DNA of 42,995 nucleotides. Origin: an uncultured Candidatus Saccharibacteria bacterium (lineage in GTDB: Bacteria > Patescibacteriota > Minisyncoccia > Phycocordibacterales > DATGWK01). A program made the translations under genes and the position numbers. Below the pieces are notes generated by a model. The model was given only the letters and a program-made list of their open reading frames with translations, was not told the DNA's origin and did no database searches. The DNA lies in the NCBI GenBank assembly GCA_964390475.1, contig CAYMIB010000002.1, forward strand, positions 1 to 42,995. The letters are read 5' to 3'. Shown here piece after piece: positions 20,558 through 32,255 of this stretch. Positions within the stretch are counted from its first letter, which is position 1; every line of letters begins with the position of its first letter.

Positions 20558-21202
20558 ATGGTCTATATTTTTCTGGATGAATCTGGCGATTTGGGCTTTA
20601 ATTTTAAAAAGAAGAAAACTTCGAGGTATTTTATTATTACTGCCCTATTAACAAAAAATAAGACTCAGCTGGAGAAAATAGTTAAGAAAATATTTAGGGA
20701 CCTTGCTCCGAATGAAATTAAAACCCGCGGTGGAACATTGCACGCTCACAAAGAAAGTCCGAAAACAAGGCAAAAATTACTCGGATTATTTCACAATCAA
20801 ACGGGTACAAATATTGCTGTTATTTATATAAAGAAACAGATAGCTCACACAAACTTATTCAAGAAAAAACATCATTTATATTCTCAAATTATAAATGAAT
20901 TGCTCAGTAGAATATGTGAGAAAGAACTAATACCAAAAAATGAGATACTTCACATTTACGCTTCAAGAAGAGAGACCAACCGATCTCTGAATACTCACTT
21001 TTCCTCCTATCTTAAAAAGGAGTTAGAAACCCATTATAAAATAAGTGCTGAGATTTGTGTTCTTTCACCGTCGGCTGAAAAGGGTCTGCAGGTTGCTGAT
21101 ATGATCTCCTGGTCAATTTTCAGAAAATATGAACACGGTGACATAACTTACTACGAGACCATAGCAAAGGAAATTATTGAGGAAAATCAATTACACCCGT
21201 AG
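20558..21202 (+). CDS. DUF3800-family protein
   Basis: 214 aa. The N-terminal VYIFLDESGDLGF motif is typical of DUF3800. It is the only + strand gene in this stretch. Confidence 0.6.
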   Translation: MVYIFLDESGDLGFNFKKKKTSRYFIITALLTKNKTQLEKIVKKIFRDLAPNEIKTRGGTLHAHKESPKTRQKLLGLFHNQTGTNIAVIYIKKQIAHTNLFKKKHHLYSQIINELLSRICEKELIPKNEILHIYASRRETNRSLNTHFSSYLKKELETHYKISAEICVLSPSAEKGLQVADMISWSIFRKYEHGDITYYETIAKEIIEENQLHP

Positions 21203-21318: not shown

Positions 21319-23376
21319 TTATTTCTTATTTTGATATAAGCGTTCCAACTCCGCGATCTCATCGCGTAAAATCGCCGCGGTTTCGAAGTCGAGGATTTTT
21401 ACGGCATTAGACATTTGAAGCTTTTTTTCTTTGAGCAAACCTTTTGGTTTCTTTTTGAAAATTTGAGCGTCGATGGCGAGCAGATTCTGGACAGCCTTTG
21501 AATGTTCGCTTCGCATACTTTCTGAAATATCTCGAATCGCCTTGCTAATCGTTTTCGGAGTAATGCCGTGTTTTTTATTGTATTCGAGTTGAAGGGTTCG
21601 GCGGCGGTTGGTTTCGCCTATCGCTCGTTCCATCGAGCCAGTTACACGGTCGGCGTAAAGCACGACTTCACCCTCGATATTTCGAGCGGCGCGGCCGATA
21701 ATCTGTATTAGCGACGTTTCTGAACGCAAAAAACCTTCCTTATCAGCGTCGAGGATGCCGATGAAAGCCAATTCGGGCAAATCGAGACCTTCTCGAAGCA
21801 GGTTGACGCCAACAAGCACGTCGAACTCGCCACGGCGGAAACGAGTCAAAATTTCTATGCGCTCGATGGTCAAAATGTCACTATGTAAATATTCCGCTTT
21901 GATTTTTCGCTCTTTCAAAAACTCGCTCAGATCTTCCGCCATTTTTTTGGTCAGAGTGGTTGCAACCGCTCGATGCCCGCGTTTTATAAAATCTTCGGCT
22001 TTTTCTATGAAGTCCTGAACTTGGCCTTTGTAGGCGTTTTTCCCACCAGAGGCGCCGACCGAGCTCGCCATCACCGGCAACACGGTAATTTTCGGATCAA
22101 TCAAACCAGTCGGGCGAATCACCTGCTCGACAACATTTTCGCTATGCTCTGCTTCATATTTTCCCGGCGTCGCAGAAGTGTAAATCACCTGCCCGACTCG
22201 TTCCTCAAATTCATTGAACTTCAAGGGGCGGTTGTCTCGGGCTGACGGCAAACGAAAACCGTGATCAATGAGGGTTTTCTTTCGAGCCGCATCGCCGTTA
22301 TACATACCACCAATTTGCGGCACGGTGACATGCGATTCATCAATGATTGTCAGGAAATCCGGCGAACCGTCGGCTTTATGCGGAAAATATGAGAGTAAAG
22401 AATCTGGCGCATCACCAGCGATCCGTCCAGAAAAATGACGCGAATAATTTTCGATTCCACTGCAATAGCCAATTTCGCGGATCAGAGCTAGATCATACCG
22501 AGTGCGACGCTTGAGACGTTCGTGTTCGAGCACCTTGCCTTCTTTTTTAAAAAGTTTGAGCTGTTCTTCGAGTTCAGACTCGATCGTTTTAAGCGCATGT
22601 TCCACTTGCTCAGGGTTGGTAATGAAATGCTTTGCTGGAAAAAGAAAGAAAACTTTTACATCTTCCAAAATAGTGCCCGAAACACCCTCAATTTTTTTAA
22701 TGCTCACAATCTCATCGCCGTTTTTTCCAGTCCCGAGCTCGAGTCGATACACCACTTTTTCGTTGACAGGCATGATTTCGATCGAATTGCCCACCGCTCG
22801 GAATAAACCAGGGGTCAAGTCGGCATTGGTTCGTTCAAAATGAAGACCAATGAGAGCACGCATAAAATCGCCGCGATAGATTCCCTGCCCGCGCTCGATT
22901 CGCATATTTACTTTTTCGTACTCCACTGGACTACCAAGGCCATAAATACACGACACCGAAGCAACAATGATCACATCCTTCCTAGTGAGCAAAGCTTGAG
23001 TCGACGCGTGCCGAAGGCGGTCGATTTCTTCATTTATCTGTGCTTCCTTCTCTATATATGTATCCGTCACCGGCATATAGGCTTCCGGCTGATAATAGTC
23101 GTAGTAGGAAACAAAATAATGCACGGCGTTGTTAGGGAAAAATTCGCGATATTCCTGGGCAAGCTGAGCGGCCAGAGTTTTGTTGTGGGCAATAACCAGC
23201 GTCGGTTTGCCGGCGTTTGCAATGACATTGGCCACCGTAAACGTTTTTCCCGAGCCAGTTACGCCAAAAAGCGTCTGATGCTGCAGACCTTTTTTGAGTC
23301 CGTCAGTTAGACCTTGGATCGCCTTAGGCTGATCACCGGCCGGGGCGAATTCGGATTTGAGGTTAAAGAGGGACAT
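21319..23376 (-). CDS. uvrB: Excinuclease ABC subunit B
   Basis: 685 aa. GVTGSGKT, IIDESHVT and the C-terminal UVR motif FETAAILRDEIAELE. Confidence 0.95.
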   Translation of the reverse strand: MSLFNLKSEFAPAGDQPKAIQGLTDGLKKGLQHQTLFGVTGSGKTFTVANVIANAGKPTLVIAHNKTLAAQLAQEYREFFPNNAVHYFVSYYDYYQPEAYMPVTDTYIEKEAQINEEIDRLRHASTQALLTRKDVIIVASVSCIYGLGSPVEYEKVNMRIERGQGIYRGDFMRALIGLHFERTNADLTPGLFRAVGNSIEIMPVNEKVVYRLELGTGKNGDEIVSIKKIEGVSGTILEDVKVFFLFPAKHFITNPEQVEHALKTIESELEEQLKLFKKEGKVLEHERLKRRTRYDLALIREIGYCSGIENYSRHFSGRIAGDAPDSLLSYFPHKADGSPDFLTIIDESHVTVPQIGGMYNGDAARKKTLIDHGFRLPSARDNRPLKFNEFEERVGQVIYTSATPGKYEAEHSENVVEQVIRPTGLIDPKITVLPVMASSVGASGGKNAYKGQVQDFIEKAEDFIKRGHRAVATTLTKKMAEDLSEFLKERKIKAEYLHSDILTIERIEILTRFRRGEFDVLVGVNLLREGLDLPELAFIGILDADKEGFLRSETSLIQIIGRAARNIEGEVVLYADRVTGSMERAIGETNRRRTLQLEYNKKHGITPKTISKAIRDISESMRSEHSKAVQNLLAIDAQIFKKKPKGLLKEKKLQMSNAVKILDFETAAILRDEIAELERLYQNKK

Positions 23377-23426
23377 TACGGTAGTTATAGCATAATCACG
23401 ATAAAAATTTTAGAGAAATTAAAAAA

Positions 23427-23453
23427 ACGCGGAGTGTCCGAAGACCCCCGCGT
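23427..23453 (-). terminator. Strong intrinsic terminator ending the helicase/hairpin-tail transcript
   Basis: Minus strand: ACGCGGgggtc-TTCG-gacactCCGCGT followed by TTTTTTT. The loop is a cUUCGg tetraloop. This is the first terminator-like structure downstream of the helicase stop. Confidence 0.75.
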
Positions 23454-23456
23454 CTG

Positions 23457-24101
23457 TAGAAGAGAAAAGAACAACTAACTAGACAGAACCCTACGAAACT
23501 GAACACCAGAAACGCCCACAAAGCCTTTCAGCAATGTGAGCCTGTACTCGACCCGAGATCACTGAACAGTACTGCACGATACCACGCATCACATGGCGAT
23601 AATCGAATAGTGCGAGACGTTTTTCAACGCCCTGCACTCTGAACTACAACGAACAAAAGAGGACTTGGCGACACAGTACAATGCGCCAGTAAATCGAACT
23701 CAAATGTACACGAAAGGCCTTTCGGCTTCTCGTGTCGGCACAGAAGATCACAGGAGGCCACCGAACTACAGGTCACGACGCTACAGAGAACCTAACTGGA
23801 CTCAATCAGAAACGCACCAAGGACCTTCCGGCCTCCGGTGCCTGTACCAATCAATACTGTACCTAACAGTACACGACACCAGGTCACTAGAATTACAAGT
23901 GCACAGAAGCCCTTTCGGATTTCTGTGCCGATAGAGAACCGGACCTTAGGGTGCTCTAGAATACAGAACTCCACGGGACAGCACTTAACCTAAAATTGCA
24001 CAGAGTGATCGAAAGATTACTCTGTGCCTAAAGTACACCATACTGTACTCAGCGACACAGAGCGGCAGAGTACAAAAGTGAACCATGTGTCCGGCTACAA
24101 A
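23457..24101 (-). ncRNA. Hairpin-unit tail downstream of the helicase ORF (six hairpin units, no intervening terminator)
   Basis: Family hairpins at 23514-23541, 23610-23637, 23708-23735, 23814-23841, 23901-23928 and 23998-24027. Five are 28 nt (12 bp + GAAA/GGAA on the minus strand) and one is 30 nt. Spacing is 87-106 nt. No credible ORF, and no promoter or terminator between the helicase stop (24102) and 23453. Confidence 0.55.
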
Positions 24102-25940
24102 TTAGAGAAGCAGCTTCTCTGCATCCTTCACCGCGGCGTCAAACGTCAGGTCGCCCATGTAGACTTGCTGAAGATGTTTGGGCAGTGAAGCGAAGACGTG
24201 GCGACGGAACTGTTGGGAAATGAAGAACGTGACGCCAACATCGGAGCGGCTCCGAATGTTGCGTCCACGAACCTGAAGCGCTTGTTGCATTGCCCGCTGA
24301 CCCCAGATCGCCCAGCGCTGACCTCCCCACCGATCCTCCTCGAACTGAGTTCCAGGATCACGAGGGTTTGGATAACTTGGACGAAGAAAAAAGATGACGG
24401 GCGCCATCTGCCTTGGAAGATCAATTCCCTCGGCGTAGTTGGCGGCGGTACCAACCAAAGTACTTCCTTCACCCTGCTTGAAGATGTTGGCAGCTTCCTT
24501 GGCTGTTACACCGTTGCCGTAGCTGATTACCTCGAGACCCTCTTCTGCGGCCATCCGCAAAAAACGATCTCGTTCATCATTTGAAACGACAACCACCAAC
24601 GAACGTAGCCCCTTGTCGGCAAACTGCTTGCATGAACGTGCAATCTGACGCAACGTTTTTGGCAGATCCCGATCGCTCCGCGTATTTCTTGCGAGGTTTG
24701 GCGTGTCGGTTGGCATGTAGACCCTTGTATTGCTGGCTGGGAAATTCGAATCGAGAGACAGGAACGGATCCTTGATCCCCGTTTCGAACCCAAAGATCTC
24801 AGGGTTGCCAATCGTTGCCGACAGCGACACCCGGTTCTTAGGCAAAATCATTTTGATGAGCGGCACTACGTAGTAGCACCGCACCACCAACTTGGTTTGG
24901 AACCGACCTTCTGAGACACGTTCCCTTCTCTGGAATGCGCAGGTGTAGTTGAGTGCCTTCCTTTCTTCGGTTGGCACTGAATACTCAAGCGTTGAGATGT
25001 ACCGCCTGAGATCTCTCACGAGAGTCTCGAGCTTTTTCAATGTGACACGATCCTCACGTGGATCGATCTTGCCCTTTTTCACAGCATCTCTGATAGCAAC
25101 AGCAAGCTCTTTCACATCGATTTCCCGGAGGATTTCGATGAGTTGAAGAACTTGTGCTGGCTTGAGAAGCGCTGCTTCACCAACTGCCATGCGACCAGCG
25201 ATTGAAATCATCTTTCGCCTGAATGTCCTCAGGACTCTTGCGACCTTTGGGGCAACTGACGTCAGAATTTCTTCTGATCGCTTGAGGTGTAGATCAGTAA
25301 TGTCGTAGGAAAGAGAGTTGCGGACGACGTTTGCCAACTGATGCGCCTCGTCGATCACCACACCTTGAGTATTGAACTCCTTTGAAAACAAGTGGGTGAA
25401 GAGAAAGAAGGACATCGTTGAGAGCACAAGCCGTGCTTTCTTTGCCTTATACTTTTGCTGAAGATACGGGCAAGCCGTTGCTCCCTTCACATGAGTCTCG
25501 CCCGTTTCTTGGTCTACCCGATGCGGGCAGTCCTGAAGAAATGAACACGGAATCTGATCGGCACGAGGATTTTCTGGATCATCGACAAGTGTTTCAAGCG
25601 TTTCCGATGAAACTCTCGGCTCGTTCCGGTAATACAAGCACGGATGCTCATTTCGTCCCAAAGCAACTGGCAGATCCGGAAACTCTATCCGAATCTGATC
25701 CAAAATCGTCTTGGTCGGCGTAATGATGAACACCGTACCGTCTGTCTGCGTTCGCATGTAGTTTGCGATCGCAAATTCCACAGCCGTTTTTCCTGTCCCT
25801 GTCGGCGCCTCGATGATTGCAGAGCCATGCTCCGCGTAAAACTCGAGCATGTCGTTTTGCACAACTCGTGGCTCACGATACACCGCCGTGCTTGGAAAGT
25901 GCGTTTTAAGCACTGGCAAGCTGATGGTCTTTTGGCCCAT
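24102..25940 (-). CDS. DinG/XPD (Rad3)-family SF2 helicase with four-Cys Fe-S cluster insertion
   Basis: 612 aa. Strong SD (gaAAGGAGGtccataATG). Walker A APTGTGKT. Cys cluster HPCLYY..IPCSFLQDCPH..ACPYLQ. DEAH box VVIDEAHQL. Motif VI QALQVRGRNIRSRSDVGVTFF. Confidence 0.8.
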   Translation of the reverse strand: MGQKTISLPVLKTHFPSTAVYREPRVVQNDMLEFYAEHGSAIIEAPTGTGKTAVEFAIANYMRTQTDGTVFIITPTKTILDQIRIEFPDLPVALGRNEHPCLYYRNEPRVSSETLETLVDDPENPRADQIPCSFLQDCPHRVDQETGETHVKGATACPYLQQKYKAKKARLVLSTMSFFLFTHLFSKEFNTQGVVIDEAHQLANVVRNSLSYDITDLHLKRSEEILTSVAPKVARVLRTFRRKMISIAGRMAVGEAALLKPAQVLQLIEILREIDVKELAVAIRDAVKKGKIDPREDRVTLKKLETLVRDLRRYISTLEYSVPTEERKALNYTCAFQRRERVSEGRFQTKLVVRCYYVVPLIKMILPKNRVSLSATIGNPEIFGFETGIKDPFLSLDSNFPASNTRVYMPTDTPNLARNTRSDRDLPKTLRQIARSCKQFADKGLRSLVVVVSNDERDRFLRMAAEEGLEVISYGNGVTAKEAANIFKQGEGSTLVGTAANYAEGIDLPRQMAPVIFFLRPSYPNPRDPGTQFEEDRWGGQRWAIWGQRAMQQALQVRGRNIRSRSDVGVTFFISQQFRRHVFASLPKHLQQVYMGDLTFDAAVKDAEKLLL

Positions 25941-26007
25941 TATGGACCTCCTTTCGATGTTACGATGTTACTTTAACGCTCAAACATTAAACAAAAAAAC
26001 AGAACTG

Positions 26008-26026
26008 AAACGCACACGATGCGTTT
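26008..26026 (-). promoter_or_regulatory. Hairpin in the helicase 5' leader (possible attenuator or bidirectional terminator)
   Basis: AAACGCA-n5-TGCGTTT. On the + strand it is followed directly by TTTTTTT. On the minus strand it is preceded by an A-run and followed by cagttctgttttttt. Confidence 0.35.
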
Positions 26027-26060
26027 TTTTGTCAAAAAGCTTAAATTACCTCCGGGCGCG

Positions 26061-26089
26061 AGAATATCACATTTATTTTAATTTGTAAA
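26061..26089 (-). promoter_or_regulatory. Extended -10 sigma70 promoter for the helicase transcript
   Basis: Minus strand: TTTACAaattaaaataaatgTGaTATTCT with a 17-nt spacer. Same design as the array promoters. Confidence 0.6.
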
Positions 26090-26114
26090 GCATTGGTCGC
26101 ACGTCTCGCTAGCA

Positions 26115-26383
26115 TAAAAAATGCCAGCAAATCTTTCGAAATGCTGGCCTGCACTATAGGAAACTGCACAATACGTAACATTACCTCACTCTACTTCGAT
26201 CAAATTGTCGGTTGCAGATTTCTCAGCAACCGACCAGTAGACCAGAAAAACTTACGGGACATTACCATGGTGTACGATACCCCACAGTATGAAGTGTCGA
26301 TCGAGTTTTTCAACCCGACCGACCCGCGCAGAACAATACCCTGCCGGACCGTAGACTTGTTAACTGAACCACGGGGCTTGTTC
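26115..26383 (-). ncRNA. Hairpin-RNA unit U7 (2 hairpins)
   Basis: Runs from the promoter in module A to the terminator GCCAGCAtttc-GAAA-gatttGCTGGC + AUUUUUU (26123-26148). Family hairpins at 26207-26234 and 26295-26322. Confidence 0.55.
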
Positions 26384-26389
26384 GATATT

Positions 26390-26446
26390 AGAATAACACG
26401 CCAGATTTGGCTTGTAAAGTAAAAGCCGAGGGTTGGGTACCTCGGC
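26390..26446 (-). promoter_or_regulatory. Fused terminator-promoter module A
   Basis: Minus strand: GCCGAGG-tacccaac-CCTCGGC cttttacTTTACA -17 nt- TGtTATTCT. The hairpin is at 26425-26446, the -35 at 26413-26418 and the -10 at 26390-26395. Confidence 0.6.
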
Positions 26447-26809
26447 GAGTAGAACACGGAGCTGAAGGCAAGGGCACGTTAGAAAGGTTGACCCTACGAC
26501 ACTGAACCGGAAGTGTTGGCTTTGTGTTCCCACAAAACTAACCTATAGAGAACTGAACATAACTCGAGTGTAGGATACCTAGCTGGACTCTAATGAAATT
26601 GTCAGTTCGACCTTTCGACCAAACTGACCTATAGGAAAGGAAACGCGAGATCACAACGCTGGACAGTACTCCACCTGACGCTACTCAACATTACTCAACT
26701 AAAATTGTCATCCGGATTTTTCAACCCAGATGACCCATAGAATGCAGTACACCACCGCACGGCACCTCACACCACTTGAGGCTACTCAACATTACTGAAC
26801 CCAAGTTCC
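26417..26809 (-). ncRNA. Hairpin-RNA unit U6 (3 hairpins)
   Basis: Lies between the module B promoter and the module A terminator. Hairpins at 26515-26542, 26601-26628 and 26707-26734. Confidence 0.55.
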
Positions 26810-26815
26810 AAAAGG

Positions 26816-26872
26816 ATAATAACACGGAATATAATTTTTGTAAAATAAAAGCCGAGGGTTGATTACCTCGGC
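26816..26872 (-). promoter_or_regulatory. Fused terminator-promoter module B
   Basis: Minus strand: GCCGAGG-taatcaac-CCTCGGC ttttatTTTACA -17 nt- TGtTATTAT. Hairpin at 26851-26872, -35 at 26839-26844, -10 at 26816-26821. Confidence 0.65.
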
Positions 26873-27663
26873 GTACACTGTGGTCGACTTCGCATGACGA
26901 TACGAAACTAGACACGAACAAACTTGAAGTGTTGGCTGACCTTTTCAAGTCCGCCAACGAGCAGTGCGACAAACATTACTATAGTGCACAACACAATACA
27001 GTGCGCTATTTACCAGGTGGTCAAAAGTGTCAGTCGAGCCTTTCGGTCCAACTGACCCAAACATCACGTTAGGAGAGAGTGCCTTACTGCACAATACCTA
27101 GCCTGACAAGACCAGACAAATCGTCAGCGAGATCTTTGAACCTCGCTGACCCATACAGCAGTTTACTATTCCTTACTAGACTGAGCTATGCTCTAGAACA
27201 GTGAACCGCGTTTATCTATTACAATATCTCAACCGATTTTTTCAAACCGGTCGAGCCTTAGAATACCGTGATGTAGAAGACAGGAGACTACGTCGCCATA
27301 CTCGACCTGAGTCTACCCGACGGTGAAAATTTGTCAGTCCAGTTTTCACCAAACTGACCGAAAGTGGAGAACACTTAGGTATACGGCACAATACCGTACG
27401 ATACCCTGGCGAACTAAAACGTCAGTTCAACCTTCCGGCTAGACTGACCTACAGATAACTGAACCTGACTCGAACGCAGGTTACCTAGCTGGACTCTAAT
27501 GAAATTGTCAGTTCGACCTTTCGACCAAACTGACCGATAGAAAACTCAACTTGGCGGAACAAAACTGGACGCAACTAGAATTGTCATCCGGATTTTTCAA
27601 CCCAGATGACCAGTACTGCTCAGTAGCCAACTGCGCGGGACTCAACCTTGCAATACTCTATCC
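26843..27663 (-). ncRNA. Hairpin-RNA unit U5 (8 hairpins, longest unit)
   Basis: Hairpins at 26931-26958, 27029-27056, 27123-27150, 27228-27255, 27333-27358, 27421-27448, 27507-27534 and 27583-27610. Bounded by the module C promoter and the module B terminator. Confidence 0.55.
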
Positions 27664-27669
27664 GAATGC

Positions 27670-27724
27670 ATAATAACATGAATTATTTTTTTGTAAAATA
27701 AAAACCGAGGGTTGGTTACCTCGG
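27670..27724 (-). promoter_or_regulatory. Fused terminator-promoter module C
   Basis: Minus strand: CCGAGG-taaccaac-CCTCGG tttttatTTTACA -16 nt- TGtTATTAT. Hairpin at 27705-27724, -35 at 27692-27697, -10 at 27670-27675. Confidence 0.6.
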
Positions 27725-28099
27725 CGAAAAGCTAAGTGCCAATCACTTCTTTCGAAGAGAATGGCCCATACACAGCGGTACCGCACGCCAGGCCACCTGA
27801 CCTTACAGTGGTACACGAAGCTGAAATTGCTAGTCGAACTTTTCAGTTCGACTAGCCGGTACAAGACTCATGAGTACACGACCGAAGTCAACAGAACACT
27901 ACCGGAAATGTCAGCGTCACCTCTCGGCGAAACTGACCTACAGAGGAGTCAACACTGGGTTGCTGCACAAAACTCTACCTAACACTGCTACACGAAAGGA
28001 CAAAATGTCGAACTTGTGTTTCCACAAGATCGACCCTCAGAACACAAAGCCAGACTGGACAGAGCAACACACCACTAAACCATGTTATAAAAGCTGTCT
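27697..28099 (-). ncRNA. Hairpin-RNA unit U4 (4 hairpins)
   Basis: Hairpins at 27738-27765, 27829-27856 (perfect 12 bp + GAAA), 27910-27937 (GAGA loop) and 28007-28034. Confidence 0.55.
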
Positions 28100-28105
28100 A
28101 GCAAG

Positions 28106-28159
28106 ACAATAACACAAATTATTTTTTTGTAAAGAAAAACCGGCCACTTGGACCGGTTT
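28106..28159 (-). promoter_or_regulatory. Fused terminator-promoter module D (terminates the 86-aa ORF, promotes U4)
   Basis: Minus strand: AAACCGGtccaagtggCCGGTTT ttcTTTACA -16 nt- TGtTATTGT. The hairpin sequence differs from the other modules, but the promoter half is conserved. Confidence 0.6.
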
Positions 28160-28177
28160 GTGCTGTGACTCAGAGAT

Positions 28178-28438
28178 TCACTCGAACAAATAGAAGAGCT
28201 CTCCCTTCACGAGATCCTTCTCCTCAACCTCAATTTTCCCCTCAATCTCCTTAAGGATTTCTTTCCAATTCTCGGTGTTCTCACCAGTCCGGTATGTGAA
28301 TCTCTCAGCAATAGACTCACACCGTCCACCACCCTCTTGCCTTTGGCAGAGAATTCTGTCGGCCTCTTCCCGATTTTCAGCCAGAATCACGTAGCTGGTC
28401 AAGCCTGGTCCTGTGTAAATGTACGCCTTCAATTCCAT
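28178..28438 (-). CDS. Orphan 86-aa protein occupying one slot of the RNA-unit array
   Basis: The internal ATG at 28438 has the SD aAGGGGAaagtcATG. The track start at 28513 abuts the upstream terminator with no room for a promoter or RBS. Product MELKAYIYTGPGLTSYVILAENREEADRILCQ... has no motif I recognise. Confidence 0.6.
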   Translation of the reverse strand: MELKAYIYTGPGLTSYVILAENREEADRILCQRQEGGGRCESIAERFTYRTGENTENWKEILKEIEGKIEVEEKDLVKGELFYLFE

Positions 28439-28475
28439 GACTTTCCCCTTCGTTTGTGTGTTTGGATCTTTTCTC

Positions 28476-28504
28476 AGAGTATCATAAATATAAATACTTG
28501 TCAA
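28476..28504 (-). promoter_or_regulatory. Extended -10 promoter of the 86-aa ORF
   Basis: Minus strand: TTGACAagtatttatatttaTGaTACTCT with a 17-nt spacer. Confidence 0.55.
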
Positions 28505-28518
28505 ATGGACCATTCATA

Positions 28519-28800
28519 ATAAAAAAGTCGAGGATTGGTTACCTCGACGCGCACCAGGGTAAAGACTAGGCTACGAAACAAAACGGAACACTACTTTGCG
28601 AAATTGAAATTATTAGCTGAGCCTTTCGACCCAGCTAATCTACAGAGGAACAGACTGAGGTTAACGGTGCGATACGTTACCGTACGCCGCCTTAGACCAA
28701 ATTGTCAATCTCGCCTTTCAGCCAGACTGACCCGGAGAGTACTACAGTCAACAGCGGTAGACGGTAGATCACTGCACGTGAGTGAAGAACATCACGATCC
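28519..28800 (-). ncRNA. Hairpin-RNA unit U3 (2 hairpins)
   Basis: Hairpins at 28612-28639 (AUUAG.../...CUAAU base) and 28704-28731. Confidence 0.55.
28521..28548 (-). terminator. Terminator E (ends unit U3)
   Basis: Minus strand: GTCGAGG-taaccaat-CCTCGAC followed by TTTTTTATTAT. Same hairpin family as modules A-C, F and G, with a compensatory stem change. Confidence 0.65.
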
Positions 28801-28806
28801 GCACTC

Positions 28807-28862
28807 ACTATAACACGAATATCGTTTTTGTAAAATAAAAGCCAAGGGTTGGGTACCTCGGC
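28807..28862 (-). promoter_or_regulatory. Fused terminator-promoter module F
   Basis: Minus strand: GCCGAGG-tacccaac-CCTTGGC ttttatTTTACA -16 nt- TGtTATAGT. The stem has a G.U pair on the minus strand, which would be an A.C mismatch on the + strand. Confidence 0.6.
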
Positions 28863-29043
28863 GAGTAGGAAGGTGGACACCAGAAGACGATGCGAAACAC
28901 AACAGTAAAACACTGAACTTTATTTTTTTGAATTGTCAGCCCAGTTTTTCAACCGGACTGACCCGCAGACAACTACACAGCAGTAGAGTACACGTCACAT
29001 CACGCAACTCGACCGTGCAAAACGTAACCTCAATTACTTTTCT
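28833..29043 (-). ncRNA. Hairpin-RNA unit U2 (1 hairpin)
   Basis: Single hairpin at 28935-28962, identical in sequence to the inverted copy at 30833-30860. Confidence 0.55.
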
Positions 29044-29049
29044 TCAAAG

Positions 29050-29105
29050 ACAATAACATGGATTTATATTTTGTAAAATAAAAGCCAAGGATTGGTTACC
29101 TTGGC
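29050..29105 (-). promoter_or_regulatory. Fused terminator-promoter module G
   Basis: Minus strand: GCCAAGG-taaccaat-CCTTGGC ttttatTTTACA -16 nt- TGtTATTGT. The stem carries a compensatory G-C to A-U change relative to modules A-C. Confidence 0.6.
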
Positions 29106-29744
29106 GTAGAGTGGAGTACACAGAACGACACTGAAGAGTGCAAGAGGATACCGCACACCACGTCACCTCAGACCACGCTAAAGCGTCAGCTCGATTTTTC
29201 AATCAAGCTGACCCGTACCTGGGAATACAACAGCTTGCTGGACGAGAGACTAGCGTACACTACTGGACCAAAGCGTCAGCTTAGTTTTTCAACCAGGCTG
29301 ACCAGCACGGAAGTCCGGCCCACGAGACATGGCTAGACACCACTTCAAATTGTCGGCATCACCTTTCGGTGTAACCGACCGGCACAGAACTCTGCCGTAG
29401 CTTACAGGGCTATACGTAACAGAGCCACAGACAAAATTAAATTGTCGACCGTGTGTTTCCACAAGATCGACCCTTAGCACAGCACAGTTAACGGCAGAAC
29501 ACGGCAGTTCACGGCACTTGAGTGTAGATCAAAGTGTTAGCCCAGCATTTCTACCGGGTTAACCAGCAGTGTACATCACCGCACATTACCAAAGACGACG
29601 TCACGCTACGAAACCTCACTTCAAAATTGTTGGCACCGCGTCTCCGCGATGCCAACCCATAGAGCACCGGACGCGACCTGGCGATACCTAACAATACCTT
29701 GGGTGACAATACCCTGGGTGACTGTACCCAACTTAGATCGATCC
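29076..29744 (-). ncRNA. Hairpin-RNA unit U1 (6 hairpins)
   Basis: Hairpins at 29185-29212, 29275-29302, 29352-29379, 29444-29471, 29536-29563 and 29629-29656. The 5' end is inferred from the putative promoter at 29751-29779. Confidence 0.5.
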
Positions 29745-29750
29745 TCACAA

Positions 29751-29793
29751 AATCTACTATCATGTTGACACGAAGTCAACCGTATGTTAAGTT
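29751..29793. promoter_or_regulatory. Back-to-back divergent promoters sharing a palindromic -35 region
   Basis: + strand: TTGACAcgaagtcaaccgtaTGtTAAGTT (29765-29793, 17-nt spacer) for the 242-aa gene. Minus strand: TTGACT -17 nt- TAGATT (29779 down to 29751) for U1. gTTGAC-acgaa-GTCAAc is a perfect inverted repeat. Confidence 0.5.
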
Positions 29794-29880
29794 TCGCCCG
29801 GACTCAAGAGTGAGGGCGTTGTGCCGCTCGCCTGAGATTTCTTTCAAGGGCTTGAAAAAGCCACAGTACGGAGAAAGACC

Positions 29881-30609
29881 ATGAAGCGTTTGCTGATCAC
29901 GTGTGTTGGTGCGTATCCCATCATGATGGACCCGATGACTGATGAAGTGCTCGACAGCCTCGCAACAGGCGTCCGTGTTCAGATCCAGAAGGATCTGTCT
30001 CATGCCGATGTCGCTCGCAAGAAGATCTACCGCGAGAATGGCGACAAGGATGGTCGGATCGGCCTGCCGACCGAAATGCTTTTCGCGGCATTGGTTGCGG
30101 CAGGTCGCAAGGTTTCCTACCGAGGCAAAACCAATATCTCGACCGCTGAAACCTCCATGTTGCCCGGCCTGCTCACGATCAACGAGGACTTCCTGCCGTT
30201 CCCAATTCCGGACGGCGCGACCGAGCCGAAGTGGACGGTCGACAAGCGGCGTGGACGTCTGGAGAACGGTACGGCTGTGTGCTTGCGTCGTCCCAAGTTC
30301 GCCGACTGGGGTTTCGAGGTCACCATTGACTTCGATGACAAGGAGATCAGCGAGGGCAAGGTTCGAGAACTCTTCAACATCGCCGGCCGGTTCTGCGGAC
30401 TCGGATCTTTCCGACCGAGCTGCAAGGGTCCGTTTGGTCGGTTCGCGGTCCAGAAACTCGCCGACATCACGCCCACCGAATGGGCGAATGAGCCGGCTGA
30501 GGAAATCGAAGAGGGCGACGACACTGACCAGACTGGCGGCGAAGAGCGCCGGACTGGCAACAGTCATGGCAGGACCGGGACCAGGAACGGCGCGCTCGCG
30601 GGAGCTTGA
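29881..30609 (+). CDS. GC-rich 242-aa hypothetical protein with RAMP-like glycine-rich motif (possible RNA-binding/processing protein)
   Basis: SD acGGAGaaagaccATG. Of three overlapping long frames this is the only one with an RBS and a balanced composition. GLGSFRPSCKGPFGRF, near the end of the folded part, resembles the RAMP/Cas6-type G-rich loop (weak). Acidic disordered tail. The functional call is low confidence. Confidence 0.75.
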   Translation: MKRLLITCVGAYPIMMDPMTDEVLDSLATGVRVQIQKDLSHADVARKKIYRENGDKDGRIGLPTEMLFAALVAAGRKVSYRGKTNISTAETSMLPGLLTINEDFLPFPIPDGATEPKWTVDKRRGRLENGTAVCLRRPKFADWGFEVTIDFDDKEISEGKVRELFNIAGRFCGLGSFRPSCKGPFGRFAVQKLADITPTEWANEPAEEIEEGDDTDQTGGEERRTGNSHGRTGTRNGALAGA

Positions 30610-30698
30610 ACCGGCAACTGACGTTCTTCAGAAGGCAATGTTGTTTTGTAGTGCATAGTAAACAGCAGTTGCGTCATGCGCGTTTCTGTTCACTATCG

Positions 30699-30756
30699 CG
30701 GGCGTCCTGAAAAGGGCGCCCGTTTTTCTTTACTAAATCGAAATTTGTGTTATCTT
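30699..30756 (+). promoter_or_regulatory. Fused terminator-promoter module on the + strand
   Basis: CGGGCGTCCT-GAAA-AGGGCGCCCG (10 bp + GAAA) followed by TTTTTcTTTACT -16 nt- TGtTATCTT. Same layout as the minus-strand modules. Confidence 0.6.
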
Positions 30757-30762
30757 GGCGTT

Positions 30763-30964
30763 TGGACTCAAGTAGACTAGTGTTCCGTTGAGTACAGCAG
30801 GCTTGAGTATGGATCAGTTCTCTTTTCCGCGGGTCAGTCCGGTTGAAAAACTGGGCTGACGATTAGACCTCAGTTTTGTGTTCCACAGTTCGCTCGTGTG
30901 ACGTGATGTCCATTTAAGTTCCGTTTTCTGTCCGCCAGGGTATCCAATCCCTGGCTTTTATTTT
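30763..30964 (+). ncRNA. Inverted (plus-strand) hairpin-RNA unit, paralogue of U2
   Basis: Hairpin at 30833-30860 (GTCAGTCCGGTT-GAAA-AACTGGGCTGAC). Terminator GCCAGGG-tatccaat-CCCTGGC + TTTTATTTT at 30934-30964, abutting the tgt stop codon. Confidence 0.55.
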
Positions 30965-30965
30965 C

Positions 30966-32255
30966 TTACACTAGATACTTTCCCAAAAACCCCCCCTTAA
31001 ACTCCGCGAACTTCCCTTCTAAAATCGCTTGGCGCATGTTTTCTACCAAATGCACGATGAAATAAAGGTTATGAATGGTCGCCAGCGTCGCGGCCAACAT
31101 TTCATCGGCCCGAAACAAGTGTGATAGATAAGCTCTGGTGTAATTTTTGCAGGTATAGCATTCGCAGTCGGCGTCAGGCCGAGAAAAATCACGGACATAC
31201 TTTGCATTGGTGAGATTAATTTTTCCGCTCGCGGTGTACAGTCCACCGTTTCGAGCGACTCTGGTCGGCGCGACGCAGTCAAAAAGATCAACACCGTTTT
31301 CGACACCCATAAAAAGATCTTCTGGCTCGCCTATGCCGAGCAAATGTCGTGGTTTTTCTTTTGGTAAAATTTCGTTCACCCACTGTACGGCCGTGATCAT
31401 GTCTTCTTTGGCAAAAGAACCACCGATGCCGAAGCCATCGAAACTCTGACCAGAAGCTGGGCCGCGCATGTCGGCAATCGCCTGGGCGCTTTCTTTACGC
31501 AAAATCTCCGAACGGCCGCCCTGAACAATTCCAAAAAGAGCAATTGGCGGTTTGTCTGCGGCCGCCCGCTCGGCCGAAAGTTTTTGGTGATGTTCAAGCG
31601 ACCGCTTCGCCCAGCGATGAGTGCGATCGAGAGCTTCGCGTTGATAATGATTCGATTCGTGTGGCGAAGTACATTCATCAAAAGCAAAAATTATGTCGGC
31701 GCCGAGATTGTGCTGAATTTCCATCGACTTTTCCGGCGTGAAGTAATGCGCACTGCCGTCGAGATGCGACCGAAATGTCACACCGTTTGGATCAATCGAA
31801 GCGATTTTTGGTTTCTCCTCACTGTCGCGACCATTTCCACCACCAACACTTCCTTCAGTTCGTTCGGCAAGCTGTAGTTCTTCGTCGCCCTCCACTGCAT
31901 GACCTTTTACAATTTTGCTAATCCCCTTTCCATACGCCGCACCAAGAGAGAAAACCTGAAAACCGCCAGAGTCGGTCATGGTCGGCCCTGGCCAATTCAT
32001 AAATTTCTGCAAACCTCCAGCGTCACGAACGAGTTCATCGCCCGGCTGAAGAAAAAGGTGGTATGTGTTGGCCAAAACAACCTGCGCACCGGTCTCGCGA
32101 ATTTGCTCAGGGGTAAGCGACTTGATAGTGGCCTTAGTAGCCACGGGGACAAAAGCCGGGGTCAAAATAGTGCCGTGGGGAGTTATAAGTTCGCCCGCAC
32201 GAGCTCTCGTGCCAGGCAACTCGGCTTTTATATTGAAAACAAAAGGTTTTTTCAC
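30966..32255 (-). CDS. tgt: tRNA-guanine transglycosylase (queuine tRNA-ribosyltransferase) with internal insertion
   Basis: 429 aa. TPAFVPVATKATIKS, TDSGGFQVFSL, FDECT and the zinc site CECYTCKNYTRAYLSHL. Carries an extra acidic/Gly-rich segment after FSLG. Confidence 0.9.
   Translation of the reverse strand: MKKPFVFNIKAELPGTRARAGELITPHGTILTPAFVPVATKATIKSLTPEQIRETGAQVVLANTYHLFLQPGDELVRDAGGLQKFMNWPGPTMTDSGGFQVFSLGAAYGKGISKIVKGHAVEGDEELQLAERTEGSVGGGNGRDSEEKPKIASIDPNGVTFRSHLDGSAHYFTPEKSMEIQHNLGADIIFAFDECTSPHESNHYQREALDRTHRWAKRSLEHHQKLSAERAAADKPPIALFGIVQGGRSEILRKESAQAIADMRGPASGQSFDGFGIGGSFAKEDMITAVQWVNEILPKEKPRHLLGIGEPEDLFMGVENGVDLFDCVAPTRVARNGGLYTASGKINLTNAKYVRDFSRPDADCECYTCKNYTRAYLSHLFRADEMLAATLATIHNLYFIVHLVENMRQAILEGKFAEFKGGFLGKYLV

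What the first reader, a model, noticed from the sequence alone, without database searches (positions are those of the whole stretch)
23457..24101. The helicase ORF is followed by six hairpin units before the first terminator
There is no terminator or promoter between the helicase stop (24102) and the strong cUUCGg/U7 terminator at 23427-23453.

That ~640-nt stretch has no plausible ORF. It contains six family hairpins with bases such as GCACAG/CUGUGC, spaced 87-106 nt apart and carrying the same flanks.

The helicase mRNA therefore probably carries hairpin units in cis. This is the strongest positional evidence that the DinG/XPD-like helicase and the hairpin RNA work together.
Basis: partly seen in the sequence, partly recalled or inferred. 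Interest (0 to 1): 0.75.

Follow-up and report, generated by a model that had tools for sequence, protein, structure and literature searches.

The report
VIPR guide RNAs behind a helicase gene
The six hairpins after the helicase gene are the 3' handles of six guide RNAs of a VIPR system, a recently described CRISPR-like RNA-guided DNA-recognition system, found here in a Patescibacteria chromosome with a helicase partner and 34 guides.

Summary
On the minus strand, 23457-24101 holds six 28-30 nt hairpins (11-13 bp stem, GNRA-type loop) spaced 87-106 nt apart. There is no ORF, promoter or terminator before the terminator at 23453-23421.

The hairpins are only half of each unit. Each is preceded by 11-14 in-phase pentanucleotide slots of the form N-G-Y-N-N, and the tract is phase-locked to the hairpin.

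Twenty-seven more such units lie upstream of the helicase (26103-29779) in seven promoter/terminator units. One lies on the plus strand.

The divergent 242-aa gene (29881-30609) is a homologue of the solved SUSP1 Vipr protein (PDB 36pp, E 1.6e-11) and has a Cas7-like fold.

The locus therefore matches the VIPR systems described in 2026 preprints: a Vipr protein, vrRNAs made of pentamer repeats plus a structured 3' tail, and an accessory gene. Here the accessory gene is an Fe-S XPD/DinG-type helicase.

The Vipr/array/helicase module recurs in about 30 Patescibacteria loci. Co-transcription of the tail with the helicase is plausible here and in close relatives, but distant relatives place a terminator right after the helicase.

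Verdict: a new member of a known, very recent kind. Departures are a relaxed NGY motif, a hairpin tail and unusually large arrays. No targets were found.

The parts
23457..24101 (-). The finding: six vrRNA-like units in the 3' UTR of the helicase gene. Each is a tract of 11-14 NGYNN pentamer slots followed by a 28-30 nt hairpin. Unit spans are about 24098-23998, 23997-23901, 23900-23814, 23813-23708, 23707-23610 and 23609-23514.
   Evidence: Sequence and hairpin scan. In-phase pentamers: 8-10 G-Y of 11-14 slots per unit, with the tract ending 2 or 7 nt before the hairpin. MFE fold z = -7.3. No ORF.
23421..23453 (-). Intrinsic terminator (stem, UUCG loop, U7) that ends the helicase-plus-tail transcription unit.
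24102..25940 (-). XPD/DinG-family SF2 helicase of 612 aa, the likely accessory (vap-type) gene. It has Walker A GTGKT (48), DEAH (197) and four conserved Cys (101, 132, 138, 157) where the 4Fe-4S domain sits.
   Evidence: Pfam DEAD, ResIII, DEAD_2 and Helicase_C_2. PADLOC typeIV_DinG model PDLC01439, E 5.6e-41 over the full length. NCBIfam: all hits below cut-offs. PDB best hit is XPD. Cys conservation is 93-100% in 81 sequences.
26008..26089 (-). Helicase promoter-like site (TTTACA-17-TATTCT with extended TG, 26089-26061) and a 5' UTR containing a small hairpin (26026-26008).
   Evidence: L001 has a similar 5' UTR.
26103..29779 (-). Upstream array of 27 vrRNA-like units in seven transcription units.
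- Promoter-like sites: 29779, 29077, 28834, 28133, 27697, 26844, 26418.
- Terminators: 29105-29084, 28862-28841, 28548-28527, 27725-27704, 26872-26851, 26446-26425.
- The last hairpin (26148-26123) is followed by a U-run.
- Units per transcription unit: 6, 1, 2, 4, 8, 3, 3.
   Evidence: Repeat families. Covariance-model hits confined to this locus. Promoter/terminator scan: 16 promoter-like sites against 6.5 expected, and 26 terminator-like sites against 8.5 expected. Linkers and pentamers.
28178..28438 (-). Small 86-aa ORF embedded in the array, with its own promoter-like site, RBS and terminator (28159-28137). Membership of the system is doubtful.
   Evidence: No Pfam, NCBIfam, PHROG or PADLOC hit. 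No homologue in any fetched locus.
29881..30609 (+). vipr gene: a 242-aa RAMP/Cas7-like protein homologous to SUSP1 Vipr.
   Evidence: Profile against PDB 36pp_D 'SUSP1 Vipr protein', E 1.6e-11, full length. hhalign probability 97.1%. phrog_4652, E 4e-17. AF2 model pLDDT 88.6. Foldseek top hits are Csm3 and type VII Cas7.
30698..30723 (+). Terminator of the vipr gene.
30729..30962 (+). Single vrRNA-like unit on the plus strand with its own promoter-like site (30729-30757), a hairpin at 30833-30860 and a family-type terminator (30934-30955 plus a T-run).
   Evidence: Covariance-model hit of 41.2 bits; this unit was not in the training set. Sequence. Terminator scan.

Best explanation
The window carries a chromosomal VIPR (Viral Interference Programmable Repeat) locus of a Patescibacteria bacterium. 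The 645-nt stretch encodes six of its 34 guide RNAs (vrRNAs).

**Anatomy of a unit (shown).** Each unit is a tract of about 8-14 pentanucleotide repeats, N-G-Y-N-N, followed directly and in fixed register by a 12-bp hairpin with a GNRA loop. The hairpin corresponds to the structured 3' 'tail' of a vrRNA.

**Mechanism (inferred by homology with phage SUSP1).**
- One protomer of the Vipr RAMP protein (29881-30609) binds each pentamer.
- The G-Y bases are flipped into protein pockets.
- The two following variable bases (N4, N5) are presented for gapped base pairing with double-stranded DNA, skipping every third target base.

**Role of the helicase (inferred from synteny and family).** The Fe-S XPD/DinG-type helicase is the system's accessory effector. 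It most likely acts on the R-loop/triplex that the Vipr-vrRNA filament makes on foreign DNA, comparable to DinG in type IV-A CRISPR.

**The tail itself (inferred from sequence signals only).** In this window and its close relatives, six vrRNAs ride on the helicase mRNA as its 3' UTR and would be released by processing near the hairpins. This couples helicase and guide expression.
For: **Protein.**
- The family profile hits PDB 36pp 'SUSP1 Vipr protein' at E 1.6e-11 over the full length. hhalign gives 97.1% probability.
- The AF2 model (pLDDT 88.6) matches Cas7-family subunits (Csm3, type VII Cas7) at E about 1e-5 and TM 0.45-0.55.
- The residues that contact G2 and Y3 in SUSP1 (R138, W178, R179, E71, M72, C173; paper 10.64898/2026.04.26.720927) align to R137, F177, R178, E65, M66 and C172.

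**RNA.**
- The GT dinucleotide shows 5-nt periodicity in the array and tail (autocorrelation 0.23-0.33 at lags 5 and 10). The value is 0.39-0.45 in the SUSP1 vrRNA regions and about 0 in the helicase CDS.
- The pentamer logo has G2 at 100% (fixed by how the runs were selected), Y3 as U 82% / C 18% (Y3 was restricted to pyrimidines by the same selection), and the other positions uniform.
- The same script recovers four SUSP1 tracts of 11-14 repeats, matching the published four vrRNAs.
- The tract is phase-locked to the hairpin in 32/33 window units, 33/33 L001 units and 5/6 L005 units; random CDS controls are spread over all phases.
- The hairpin covaries at all 12 pairs.

**Locus.**
- Covariance-model hits lie only within 23415-30872 of the 43-kb window, on the strand of the adjacent gene.
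- The Vipr/array/helicase module recurs in L001-L006 and in the Patescibacteria loci among L008-L064, with different neighbouring genes.

**Literature.** VIPR is defined as Vipr plus vrRNAs of 9-16 YNNGG repeats with a structured 3' tail. Types III-V carry nucleases or helicases (PMC13142463). The helicase-bearing types are uncharacterised.

**Tail in cis.** There is no promoter or terminator in 24101-23454, and the first tract starts 4 nt after the stop codon.
Against: - No RNA data exist for this organism, so transcription, processing and RNP formation are all inferred.
- The first motif position (G1 of GGY) is fully degenerate here (A .25, C .23, G .24, U .28). The two SUSP1 residues that read it are replaced (H17 to D17, D177 to S176). 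The recognition code may therefore differ from the published one.
- No target was found under the 1-nt skip rule, locally or in viral or metagenome collections.
- The tail hairpins fit the upstream hairpin consensus poorly.
- I could not see Fig. 5A or data S4 of the paper, so assignment to a particular VIPR type is not verified.
- Helicase involvement rests on synteny alone. This helicase family is widespread in Patescibacteria (352 proteins at E <= 1e-10).
Confidence: 0.85

Rival explanations
1. The six tail units are decaying or non-functional copies (vrRNA pseudogenes), or simply stabilising 3'-UTR hairpins for the helicase mRNA, and have no guide function of their own.
For: - A model trained on the upstream units alone scores them weakly, at 14.9-19.5 bits.
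- Unit 1 has a UUUC loop rather than a GNRA loop.
- Distant relatives place a terminator directly after the helicase, so a 3'-UTR array is dispensable.
Against: - Stems keep 11-13 pairs through compensatory changes.
- Every tail unit keeps an in-phase tract with 8-10 G-Y of 11-14 slots, as good as the upstream units. The tract ends 2 or 7 nt before the hairpin, the same register as upstream.
- L001/L008 and L009 keep tails of about 9 and 3 units with unrelated sequences.
Confidence: 0.08
2. It is a degenerate type IV CRISPR-Cas system. The hairpins are CRISPR repeats, the linkers are spacers, DinG is Csf4 and the 242-aa protein is Csf2/Cas7.
For: - The helicase hits a PADLOC typeIV_DinG model at E 5.6e-41.
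- The 242-aa protein has a Cas7-like fold.
- Units alternate a hairpin with a variable segment.
Against: - The 'repeats' are not near-identical; only the structure and the stem base are kept.
- The 'spacers' have a strict 5-nt periodic G-Y motif and are A-poor, unlike acquired spacers.
- No Cas1/2, Cas5, Cas6 or Cas8-like genes were seen, and the 242-aa protein matches no Pfam, NCBIfam or PADLOC Cas model.
- The NCBIfam Csf4 score is 29 bits against a cut-off of 400.
- The helicase keeps four Fe-S cysteines.
- The protein is closer to SUSP1 Vipr by sequence than to any Cas protein.
Confidence: 0.03
3. The hairpins are selfish repetitive extragenic palindromes (REP/BIME or MITE-like) that accumulated near the helicase by chance.
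For: Short imperfect palindromes occur in many copies in intergenic DNA.
Against: - All 34 copies lie in one 7.5-kb locus of the 43-kb window and follow the strand of the local transcription unit.
- They are phase-locked to pentamer tracts.
- They are bracketed by promoter/terminator modules.
- The arrangement recurs next to orthologous genes in about 30 genomes.
Confidence: 0.01
4. The RNA array is a protein-sequestering or antitoxin-like RNA, as in type III toxin-antitoxin (ToxI-like) systems or an RNA sponge, that regulates the helicase rather than guiding DNA recognition.
For: A repeat array lies upstream of a protein gene with a terminator-like hairpin between them (26026-26008), which resembles the ToxIN layout (from my own knowledge).
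Against: - The units are about 95 nt and divergent, not identical 36-nt repeats.
- There is no endoribonuclease toxin.
- A dedicated RNA-binding RAMP homologue with conserved G-Y pockets is encoded alongside.
- Homologous phage RNPs bind DNA.
Confidence: 0.03

Closest known systems
VIPR systems (Vipr protein plus vrRNA), type II of Escherichia phage SUSP1 and the P. fulva prophage; bioRxiv 10.64898/2026.04.26.720920 and 10.64898/2026.04.26.720927; PDB 36pp
   Same: - Homologous RAMP protein over its full length.
- RNA built of tandem pentanucleotide repeats with a conserved G-Y and two hypervariable bases.
- Tract capped by a structured 3' element.
- vipr gene flanked by long non-coding regions holding arrays of roughly 100-nt units.
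- G2 and Y3 contact residues conserved.
   Different: - The first G of GGY is not conserved, and its two contact residues are replaced.
- The 3' tail is a simple 12-bp GNRA hairpin, not a pseudoknot.
- There are 34 units in nine transcription units, against four vrRNAs in SUSP1.
- The context is chromosomal (uvrB, tgt, tRNAs), not a phage.
- The accessory gene is a 612-aa Fe-S helicase instead of the small DNA-binding vap1. No helicase lies within 6 kb either side of SUSP1 vipr.
- Six units lie in the accessory gene's 3' UTR.
Helicase-associated VIPR types (types III-V are said to encode nucleases or helicases; helicase types uncharacterised)
   Same: A Vipr homologue and vrRNA-like arrays sit next to a predicted helicase. 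This is the most likely home of the locus.
   Different: I could not read Fig. 5A, fig. S17 or data S4, so I do not know whether the published helicase type has an XPD/DinG helicase, occurs in Patescibacteria, or uses the NGY consensus.
Type IV-A CRISPR-Cas (Csf complex plus CasDinG)
   Same: A Cas7-like RNA-binding filament protein is paired with a DinG-family helicase. The likely logic is RNA-guided DNA binding followed by helicase action rather than an intrinsic nuclease.
   Different: - No CRISPR repeats, and no Cas5, Cas6, Cas8 or adaptation genes.
- 5-nt rather than 6-nt periodicity.
- The helicase fails the Csf4 equivalog model and retains Fe-S cysteines.
XPD/Rad3/DinG Fe-S helicases
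   Same: Walker A, DEAH and Helicase_C_2 motifs, plus four conserved cysteines between motifs Ia and II.
   Different: Below every curated NCBIfam cut-off (rad3, DinG, YoaA). It forms a Patescibacteria-specific clade that is always next to vipr in the loci examined.

Membership tests
VIPR system | Encodes a Vipr protein (minimal RAMP homologue) | tested here: met
   PDB 36pp_D at E 1.6e-11, full length. hhalign 97.1%. Cas7-like predicted fold.
VIPR system | RNA made of tandem pentanucleotide repeats (9-16, up to 30) next to vipr | tested here: met
   5-nt periodicity. 7-15 in-phase slots per unit; 11-14 in the six tail units. The method recovers the four SUSP1 vrRNAs.
VIPR system | Conserved GGY motif alternating with hypervariable NN | tested here: not met
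   G2 is fixed at 100% by how the runs were selected. Y3 is U .82 / C .18 (restricted to pyrimidines by the same selection). N4 and N5 are uniform. G1 is uniform too (A .25, C .23, G .24, U .28), so the motif is NGY. The paper allows 'a related consensus' for other types, so this is a departure from the type II motif, not necessarily from VIPR.
VIPR system | Repeat tract capped by a conserved structured 3' tail | tested here: met
   A 12-bp hairpin with a GNRA loop, all 12 pairs covarying, in fixed register with the tract. It is a hairpin rather than the SUSP1 pseudoknot.
VIPR system | Protein residues that hold G2 and Y3 are conserved | tested here: met
   SUSP1 R138, W178, R179, E71, M72 and C173 align to window R137, F177, R178, E65, M66 and C172. 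R137 and R178 are invariant and F177 is nearly invariant (at least 90%) in the family.
VIPR system | Protein residues that read G1 (H17, D177) are conserved | tested here: not met
   They align to D17 and S176. However, Patescibacteria relatives with Asp at this site also have a degenerate G1, so this residue alone does not explain the motif.
VIPR system | Accessory (vap) gene with a DNA-related function in the locus | tested here: met
   An XPD/DinG-type helicase is syntenic with vipr in every Patescibacteria locus with enough flank.
VIPR system | vrRNAs are expressed as roughly 100-nt RNAs and co-purify with Vipr | not testable with these tools
   No transcriptome or biochemistry is available. 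Only promoter and terminator signals were seen.
VIPR system | NN dinucleotides match DNA targets with a 1-nt skip | tested here: inconclusive
   The best local matches (19/24) equal the shuffled controls. Four exact-match collection scans found nothing. Mismatch-tolerant searches of large collections were not possible.
Type IV CRISPR-Cas | Array of near-identical direct repeats with unique spacers | tested here: not met
   Units are 60-91% identical to the reference copy, except for two identical pairs produced by segmental duplication. Stems vary by compensatory change, and TRF finds no array.
Type IV CRISPR-Cas | Csf1/Csf2/Csf3 (and Cas6) genes; Csf4 DinG | tested here: not met
   The 242-aa protein matches no Cas model. 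Csf4 equivalog TIGR03117 scores 29 bits against a cut-off of 400. Only one PADLOC typeIV_DinG model matches, at E 5.6e-41.
XPD/DinG Fe-S helicases | SF2 motifs plus four Cys ligands of a 4Fe-4S cluster between motifs Ia and II | tested here: met
   GTGKT at 48, DEAH at 197, and Cys 101, 132, 138 and 157 conserved in 93-100% of 81 sequences. Pfam DEAD_2 and Helicase_C_2. Cluster binding itself was not tested.
REP/BIME or MITE repeats | Copies dispersed through the genome in both orientations | tested here: not met
   All hits at E < 0.01 lie within 23415-30872 and follow the local transcription direction.

The most novel reading that the evidence does not exclude
The Patescibacteria helicase-linked clade could be a VIPR variant with its own recognition code.
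- With G1 free to vary and its reading residues replaced, three of five bases per repeat (N1, N4, N5) could carry information. The skip rule could then differ from the published 1-nt rule.
- An Fe-S XPD/DinG helicase would act as the effector.
- Chromosomal arrays of 30-40 hard-wired guides, which grow by duplication and drift rather than by acquisition, could serve as a main heritable anti-phage system of these bacteria.
- Some guides are delivered on the helicase mRNA itself.
Probability: 0.3. Interest if true: 0.7.

Novelty: new member of a known kind. Interest (0 to 1): 0.55.

Why it matters
VIPR was reported only in 2026, and only the minimal phage types and two nuclease types have been tested. 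The helicase-bearing types are explicitly uncharacterised.

This locus and its roughly 30 relatives give a concrete, well-delimited example:
- exact guide boundaries: pentamer tract plus hairpin, in fixed register;
- a relaxed NGY motif, with matching changes at the protein's G1-reading positions;
- a conserved Fe-S helicase partner;
- promoter/terminator modules;
- guides embedded in the helicase 3' UTR.

That makes several questions directly testable by heterologous expression:
- how an accessory helicase is coupled to a Vipr filament;
- how vrRNAs are processed from long transcripts;
- whether the recognition code changes when G1 is freed.

It also shows that small-genome Patescibacteria devote about 5 kb to such arrays.

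Tried and rejected
- **Rfam.** Gathering and E-value modes gave nothing in 23300-30000.
- **TRF.** It does not see the arrays because the units are too divergent.
- **Protein libraries for the 242-aa protein.** Pfam, NCBIfam and PADLOC gave no hit. Only PHROGs and the PDB profile search were informative.
- **My first idea about the linkers.** I guessed a 6-nt Cas7-type periodicity or TRAP/Hfq-like triplet sites. Autocorrelation showed 5 nt, so this was wrong.
- **Coherent period-5 power in 150-nt windows.** This mapped the arrays poorly. Lag-5 autocorrelation and phase relative to the hairpin worked.
- **D177-to-S as the explanation for the degenerate G1.** Rejected as sufficient. Patescibacteria relatives with Asp at this site also have G1 = G at only 0.11-0.36 (L006 is an exception at 0.65). 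Non-Patescibacteria relatives with Asp mostly have 0.6-0.9.
- **Target searches.** The local search with skip 0-3 against 1.86 Mb gave best scores equal to the shuffled controls, apart from the trivial self-match at skip 3. Three viral and one metagenome exact-pattern scans under the 1-nt skip rule gave zero hits.
- **Small 86-aa ORF in the array.** No homologue anywhere among the fetched loci.
- **Covariance model from upstream units only.** It recovers the tail units only marginally.
- **Paper searches.** Several timed out before one succeeded.
- **Rejected interpretations.** CRISPR, REP/MITE and type III toxin-antitoxin readings are dealt with under the rival explanations.
Full report
**1. 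The observation**

Reading the minus strand from the helicase stop (TAA, 24104-24102) to the terminator shows six hairpins. They sit at 24027-23998, 23928-23901, 23841-23814, 23735-23708, 23638-23610 and 23541-23514.
- Stems are 11-13 bp. Loops are four-base, mostly GAAA or GGAA, with UUUC in the first unit.
- Spacing is 99, 87, 106, 97 and 97 nt.
- All six, and the terminator at 23453-23427 followed by U7, appear in the minimum-free-energy fold (z = -7.3 against dinucleotide shuffles).
- The longest same-strand ORF is 60 aa with a GTG start.
- The consensus scan finds no terminator between 24101 and 23449. It finds one weak promoter-like match whose -35 is the loop of hairpin 5.

The description is accurate.

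**2. The hairpins are part of a much larger locus**

The same kind of hairpin (consensus GGUCAG-N6-GAAA-N6-CUGAC-AAUUU) occurs 27 more times on the same strand upstream of the helicase, in 26103-29779.
- This region is cut into seven transcription units by a repeated module. In it, a terminator (GCCGAGG...CCUCGGC, U-run) runs straight into a promoter (TTTACA-16/17-TGnTATTAT).
- In an alignment of 30 units, all 12 stem pairs change on both sides and 93% of cells pair, against 30-42% when the partners are slid.
- A covariance model from that alignment, run without filters over the whole 43-kb window, finds 35 hits at E < 0.01, all inside 23415-30872. Thirty-three are on the minus strand.
- Two hits are on the plus strand, downstream of the plus-strand gene 29881-30609. 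One is that gene's terminator. The other is a single unit with its own promoter and family terminator.

The family is therefore locus-specific, not a dispersed genomic repeat.

One caveat applies. A second model trained only on the upstream units scores the six tail units weakly (best 19.5 bits, E 0.013). They are still the top minus-strand hits in 26 kb. The tail units are a diverged subset: same geometry, different stem-base sequence.

**3. The linkers are not spacers of random sequence**

- The region is A-poor on the transcribed strand.
- The GT dinucleotide has a sharp 5-nt periodicity in the upstream array and the tail (autocorrelation 0.23-0.33 at lags 5 and 10). There is none in the helicase CDS.
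- Each hairpin is preceded by a tract of roughly 8-14 pentamer slots. The tract always ends 2 nt (modulo 5) before the hairpin: 32 of 33 units here, 33 of 33 in L001 and 5 of 6 in L005. Random coding positions show no preferred phase.
- For pentamers selected as in-phase G-Y runs, U outnumbers C at position 3 by 82% to 18%, and positions 1, 4 and 5 are uniform.
- The six tail units have 8-10 G-Y of 11-14 slots. The first tract begins 4 nt after the helicase stop codon.

**4. The proteins**

*Helicase (24102-25940, 612 aa).*
- It carries Pfam DEAD, ResIII, DEAD_2 and Helicase_C_2 domains.
- It has GTGKT, DEAH and four cysteines (101, 132, 138, 157) conserved in 93-100% of 81 homologues. They sit where XPD/DinG helicases bind a 4Fe-4S cluster.
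- It falls below every NCBIfam cut-off.
- It matches one PADLOC 'typeIV_DinG' model over its full length (E 5.6e-41) and a phage helicase PHROG.
- Its homologues are all from Patescibacteria.

*The divergent 242-aa gene (29881-30609).*
- It has no Pfam, NCBIfam or PADLOC match.
- A profile of its family hits one solved structure, PDB 36pp 'SUSP1 Vipr protein', over the full length (E 1.6e-11). hhalign gives 97.1% probability. It also matches phrog_4652.
- Its AlphaFold model (pLDDT 88.6) resembles Cas7-family subunits: Csm3 and type VII Cas7.

**5. Related loci**

- Contigs encoding helicase homologues at 76, 65, 58, 57 and 50% identity were fetched (L001-L006). All have non-coding stretches on both sides of the helicase and a homologue of the 242-aa protein within a few kb. 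The other neighbours differ.
- L001 has 33 model hits, all on the helicase strand: 28 upstream and 5 in a tail.
- L005 and the GC-rich L006 have recognisable hairpin-plus-tract units on both sides of the helicase.
- A scan of one genome per species with the Vipr-family alignment returned 63 loci.
- In every Patescibacteria locus with enough flank, a helicase homologue lies in the locus. The exceptions are cut by contig ends.
- In about 30 distant relatives (30-36% identity; Magnetococcales, Victivallales, Planctomycetes, Desulfovibrionaceae, Myxococcota and others) there is no helicase in the locus. Phage SUSP1 has none within 6 kb either side of vipr.
- Many of those distant relatives have canonical GGY tracts, with G1 = G at 0.6-0.9.

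**6. What is known**

Two 2026 preprints describe VIPR systems.
- The discovery paper (PMC13142463 = 10.64898/2026.04.26.720920) defines them as a Vipr protein (a minimal RAMP proposed to predate CRISPR RAMPs) plus vrRNAs. The vrRNAs are made of 9-16 YNNGG pentamers followed by a structured 3' tail.
- The NN bases read double-stranded DNA with one target base skipped per repeat, which gives programmable transcriptional repression and phage defence.
- Seven types are distinguished. In types III-V the accessory 'vap' genes encode nucleases or helicases, and III and V are the nuclease types.
- The structure paper (10.64898/2026.04.26.720927) shows one protomer per repeat. G1 is read by H17 and D177. 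G2 is read by R138 and W178. Y3 sits in a pocket of E71, M72, R179 and C173.
- That paper also states that the accessory helicases and nucleases are uncharacterised.
- My pentamer script recovers four SUSP1 tracts of 11-14 repeats next to the SUSP1 vipr gene, as published.

**7. Interpretation**

The window holds a VIPR locus. The finding's six 'hairpin units' are six vrRNAs, each a pentamer tract plus a hairpin tail.
- The G2 and Y3 contact residues are conserved in the window protein (R137, F177, R178, E65, M66, C172). The two G1 contacts are not (D17, S176). This fits the RNA logo, where G1 is free.
- The single Asp/Ser site does not predict G1 across relatives, so that link is only suggestive.

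What is shown and what is inferred:
- Shown: the helicase is the conserved third component in Patescibacteria.
- Inferred: its role is to act on the Vipr-vrRNA-DNA structure, as CasDinG does for type IV-A CRISPR.
- Inferred from signals only: the six vrRNAs are co-transcribed with the helicase.

The cis arrangement is shared by close relatives. L001/L008 have about nine units and L009 has three units before the first real terminator; the +757 site flagged in L001/L008 is itself a family hairpin. It is absent in L003, L005, L014, L015, L019, L021, L022 and L032. There a strong terminator follows the helicase stop within 56-74 nt, and arrays where present follow separately.

**8. Targets**

- Applying the published 1-nt skip rule, and 0, 2 and 3-nt skips, to all 33 minus-strand guides against 1.86 Mb of fetched sequence gave nothing above shuffled controls.
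- Four exact-match scans of viral and metagenome collections with the most regular guides gave no hit.
- These tests have low power. They allow no mismatches, and phages of this host may be absent from the collections.

**9. Verdict**

It is a new member of a recently described kind, most likely one of the helicase-bearing types. Its notable departures are:
- an NGY motif;
- a hairpin tail;
- 34 guides in nine transcription units;
- a chromosomal Patescibacteria context;
- guides in the helicase 3' UTR.

Whether these departures are already catalogued could not be checked, because the relevant figure and data files were not readable.

Noticed in passing
window 26415-26452, 26841-26878, 27694-27731, 28517-28554, 28831-28868, 29074-29111 (-); 30934-30962 (+): A repeated fused module in which the U-run of an intrinsic terminator (GCCGAGG-N8-CCTCGGC) overlaps the -35 (TTTACA) of the next promoter (extended -10, TGnTATTAT). 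It chops the array into short transcription units. The same module occurs in L001.
   Followed up: partly
window 28178-28438 (-): An 86-aa ORF sits inside the array with its own promoter-like site, RBS and terminator. It has no family match and no homologue in any related locus. Part of it (28368-28390) resembles a degraded hairpin unit.
   Followed up: partly
window 26527-26664 vs 27433-27570, and 26668-26765 vs 27544-27641 (-): Segmental duplications of one to two units at 74-80% identity. This suggests the arrays grow by duplication and divergence rather than by an acquisition machinery.
   Followed up: no
window 20558-21202 (+): A DUF3800 gene lies in a low-GC (0.36) patch between a histidine kinase and uvrB, just downstream of the VIPR locus. 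DUF3800 genes are known to be associated with structured RNA motifs (from my own knowledge). Nothing was found by Rfam here.
   Followed up: no
window 24001-25000 and 30001-31000: The helicase and vipr genes have a higher GC content (0.53-0.55) than the surrounding genome (0.40-0.45). This is compatible with horizontal acquisition of the module. In L001 the module sits next to transposase, resolvase and methyltransferase genes.
   Followed up: no
L057 (Deltaproteobacteria MAG, JAFDED010000144.1), L065, L067, L070: Distant Vipr homologues without a helicase have very regular canonical GGY tracts. L057 has 278 in-phase pentamers in 17 runs, which is a very large array.
   Followed up: no
window 23998-24037 and the other tail hairpins against the upstream hairpins: Tail hairpins use stem bases GCACAG/CUGUGC, GCACC/GGUGC, ACACG/CGUGU and similar, instead of the upstream GGUCAG/CUGAC. 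L001's tail shows a similar shift (GUGCAGA/UCUGCAC). This is possibly a distinct sub-class of vrRNA handle tied to the helicase transcript.
   Followed up: partly
window 26008-26026 (-) and L001 9905-9925: A conserved small hairpin (AAACGCA-N5-UGCGUUU) followed by a U-rich stretch lies in the helicase 5' UTR. It could be an attenuator that limits read-through from the array into the helicase.
   Followed up: no
L037 and L060 (Victivallales, CAXXKX010000003.1): Two Vipr homologues lie about 26 kb apart on one chromosome. Neither has a helicase nearby.
   Followed up: no
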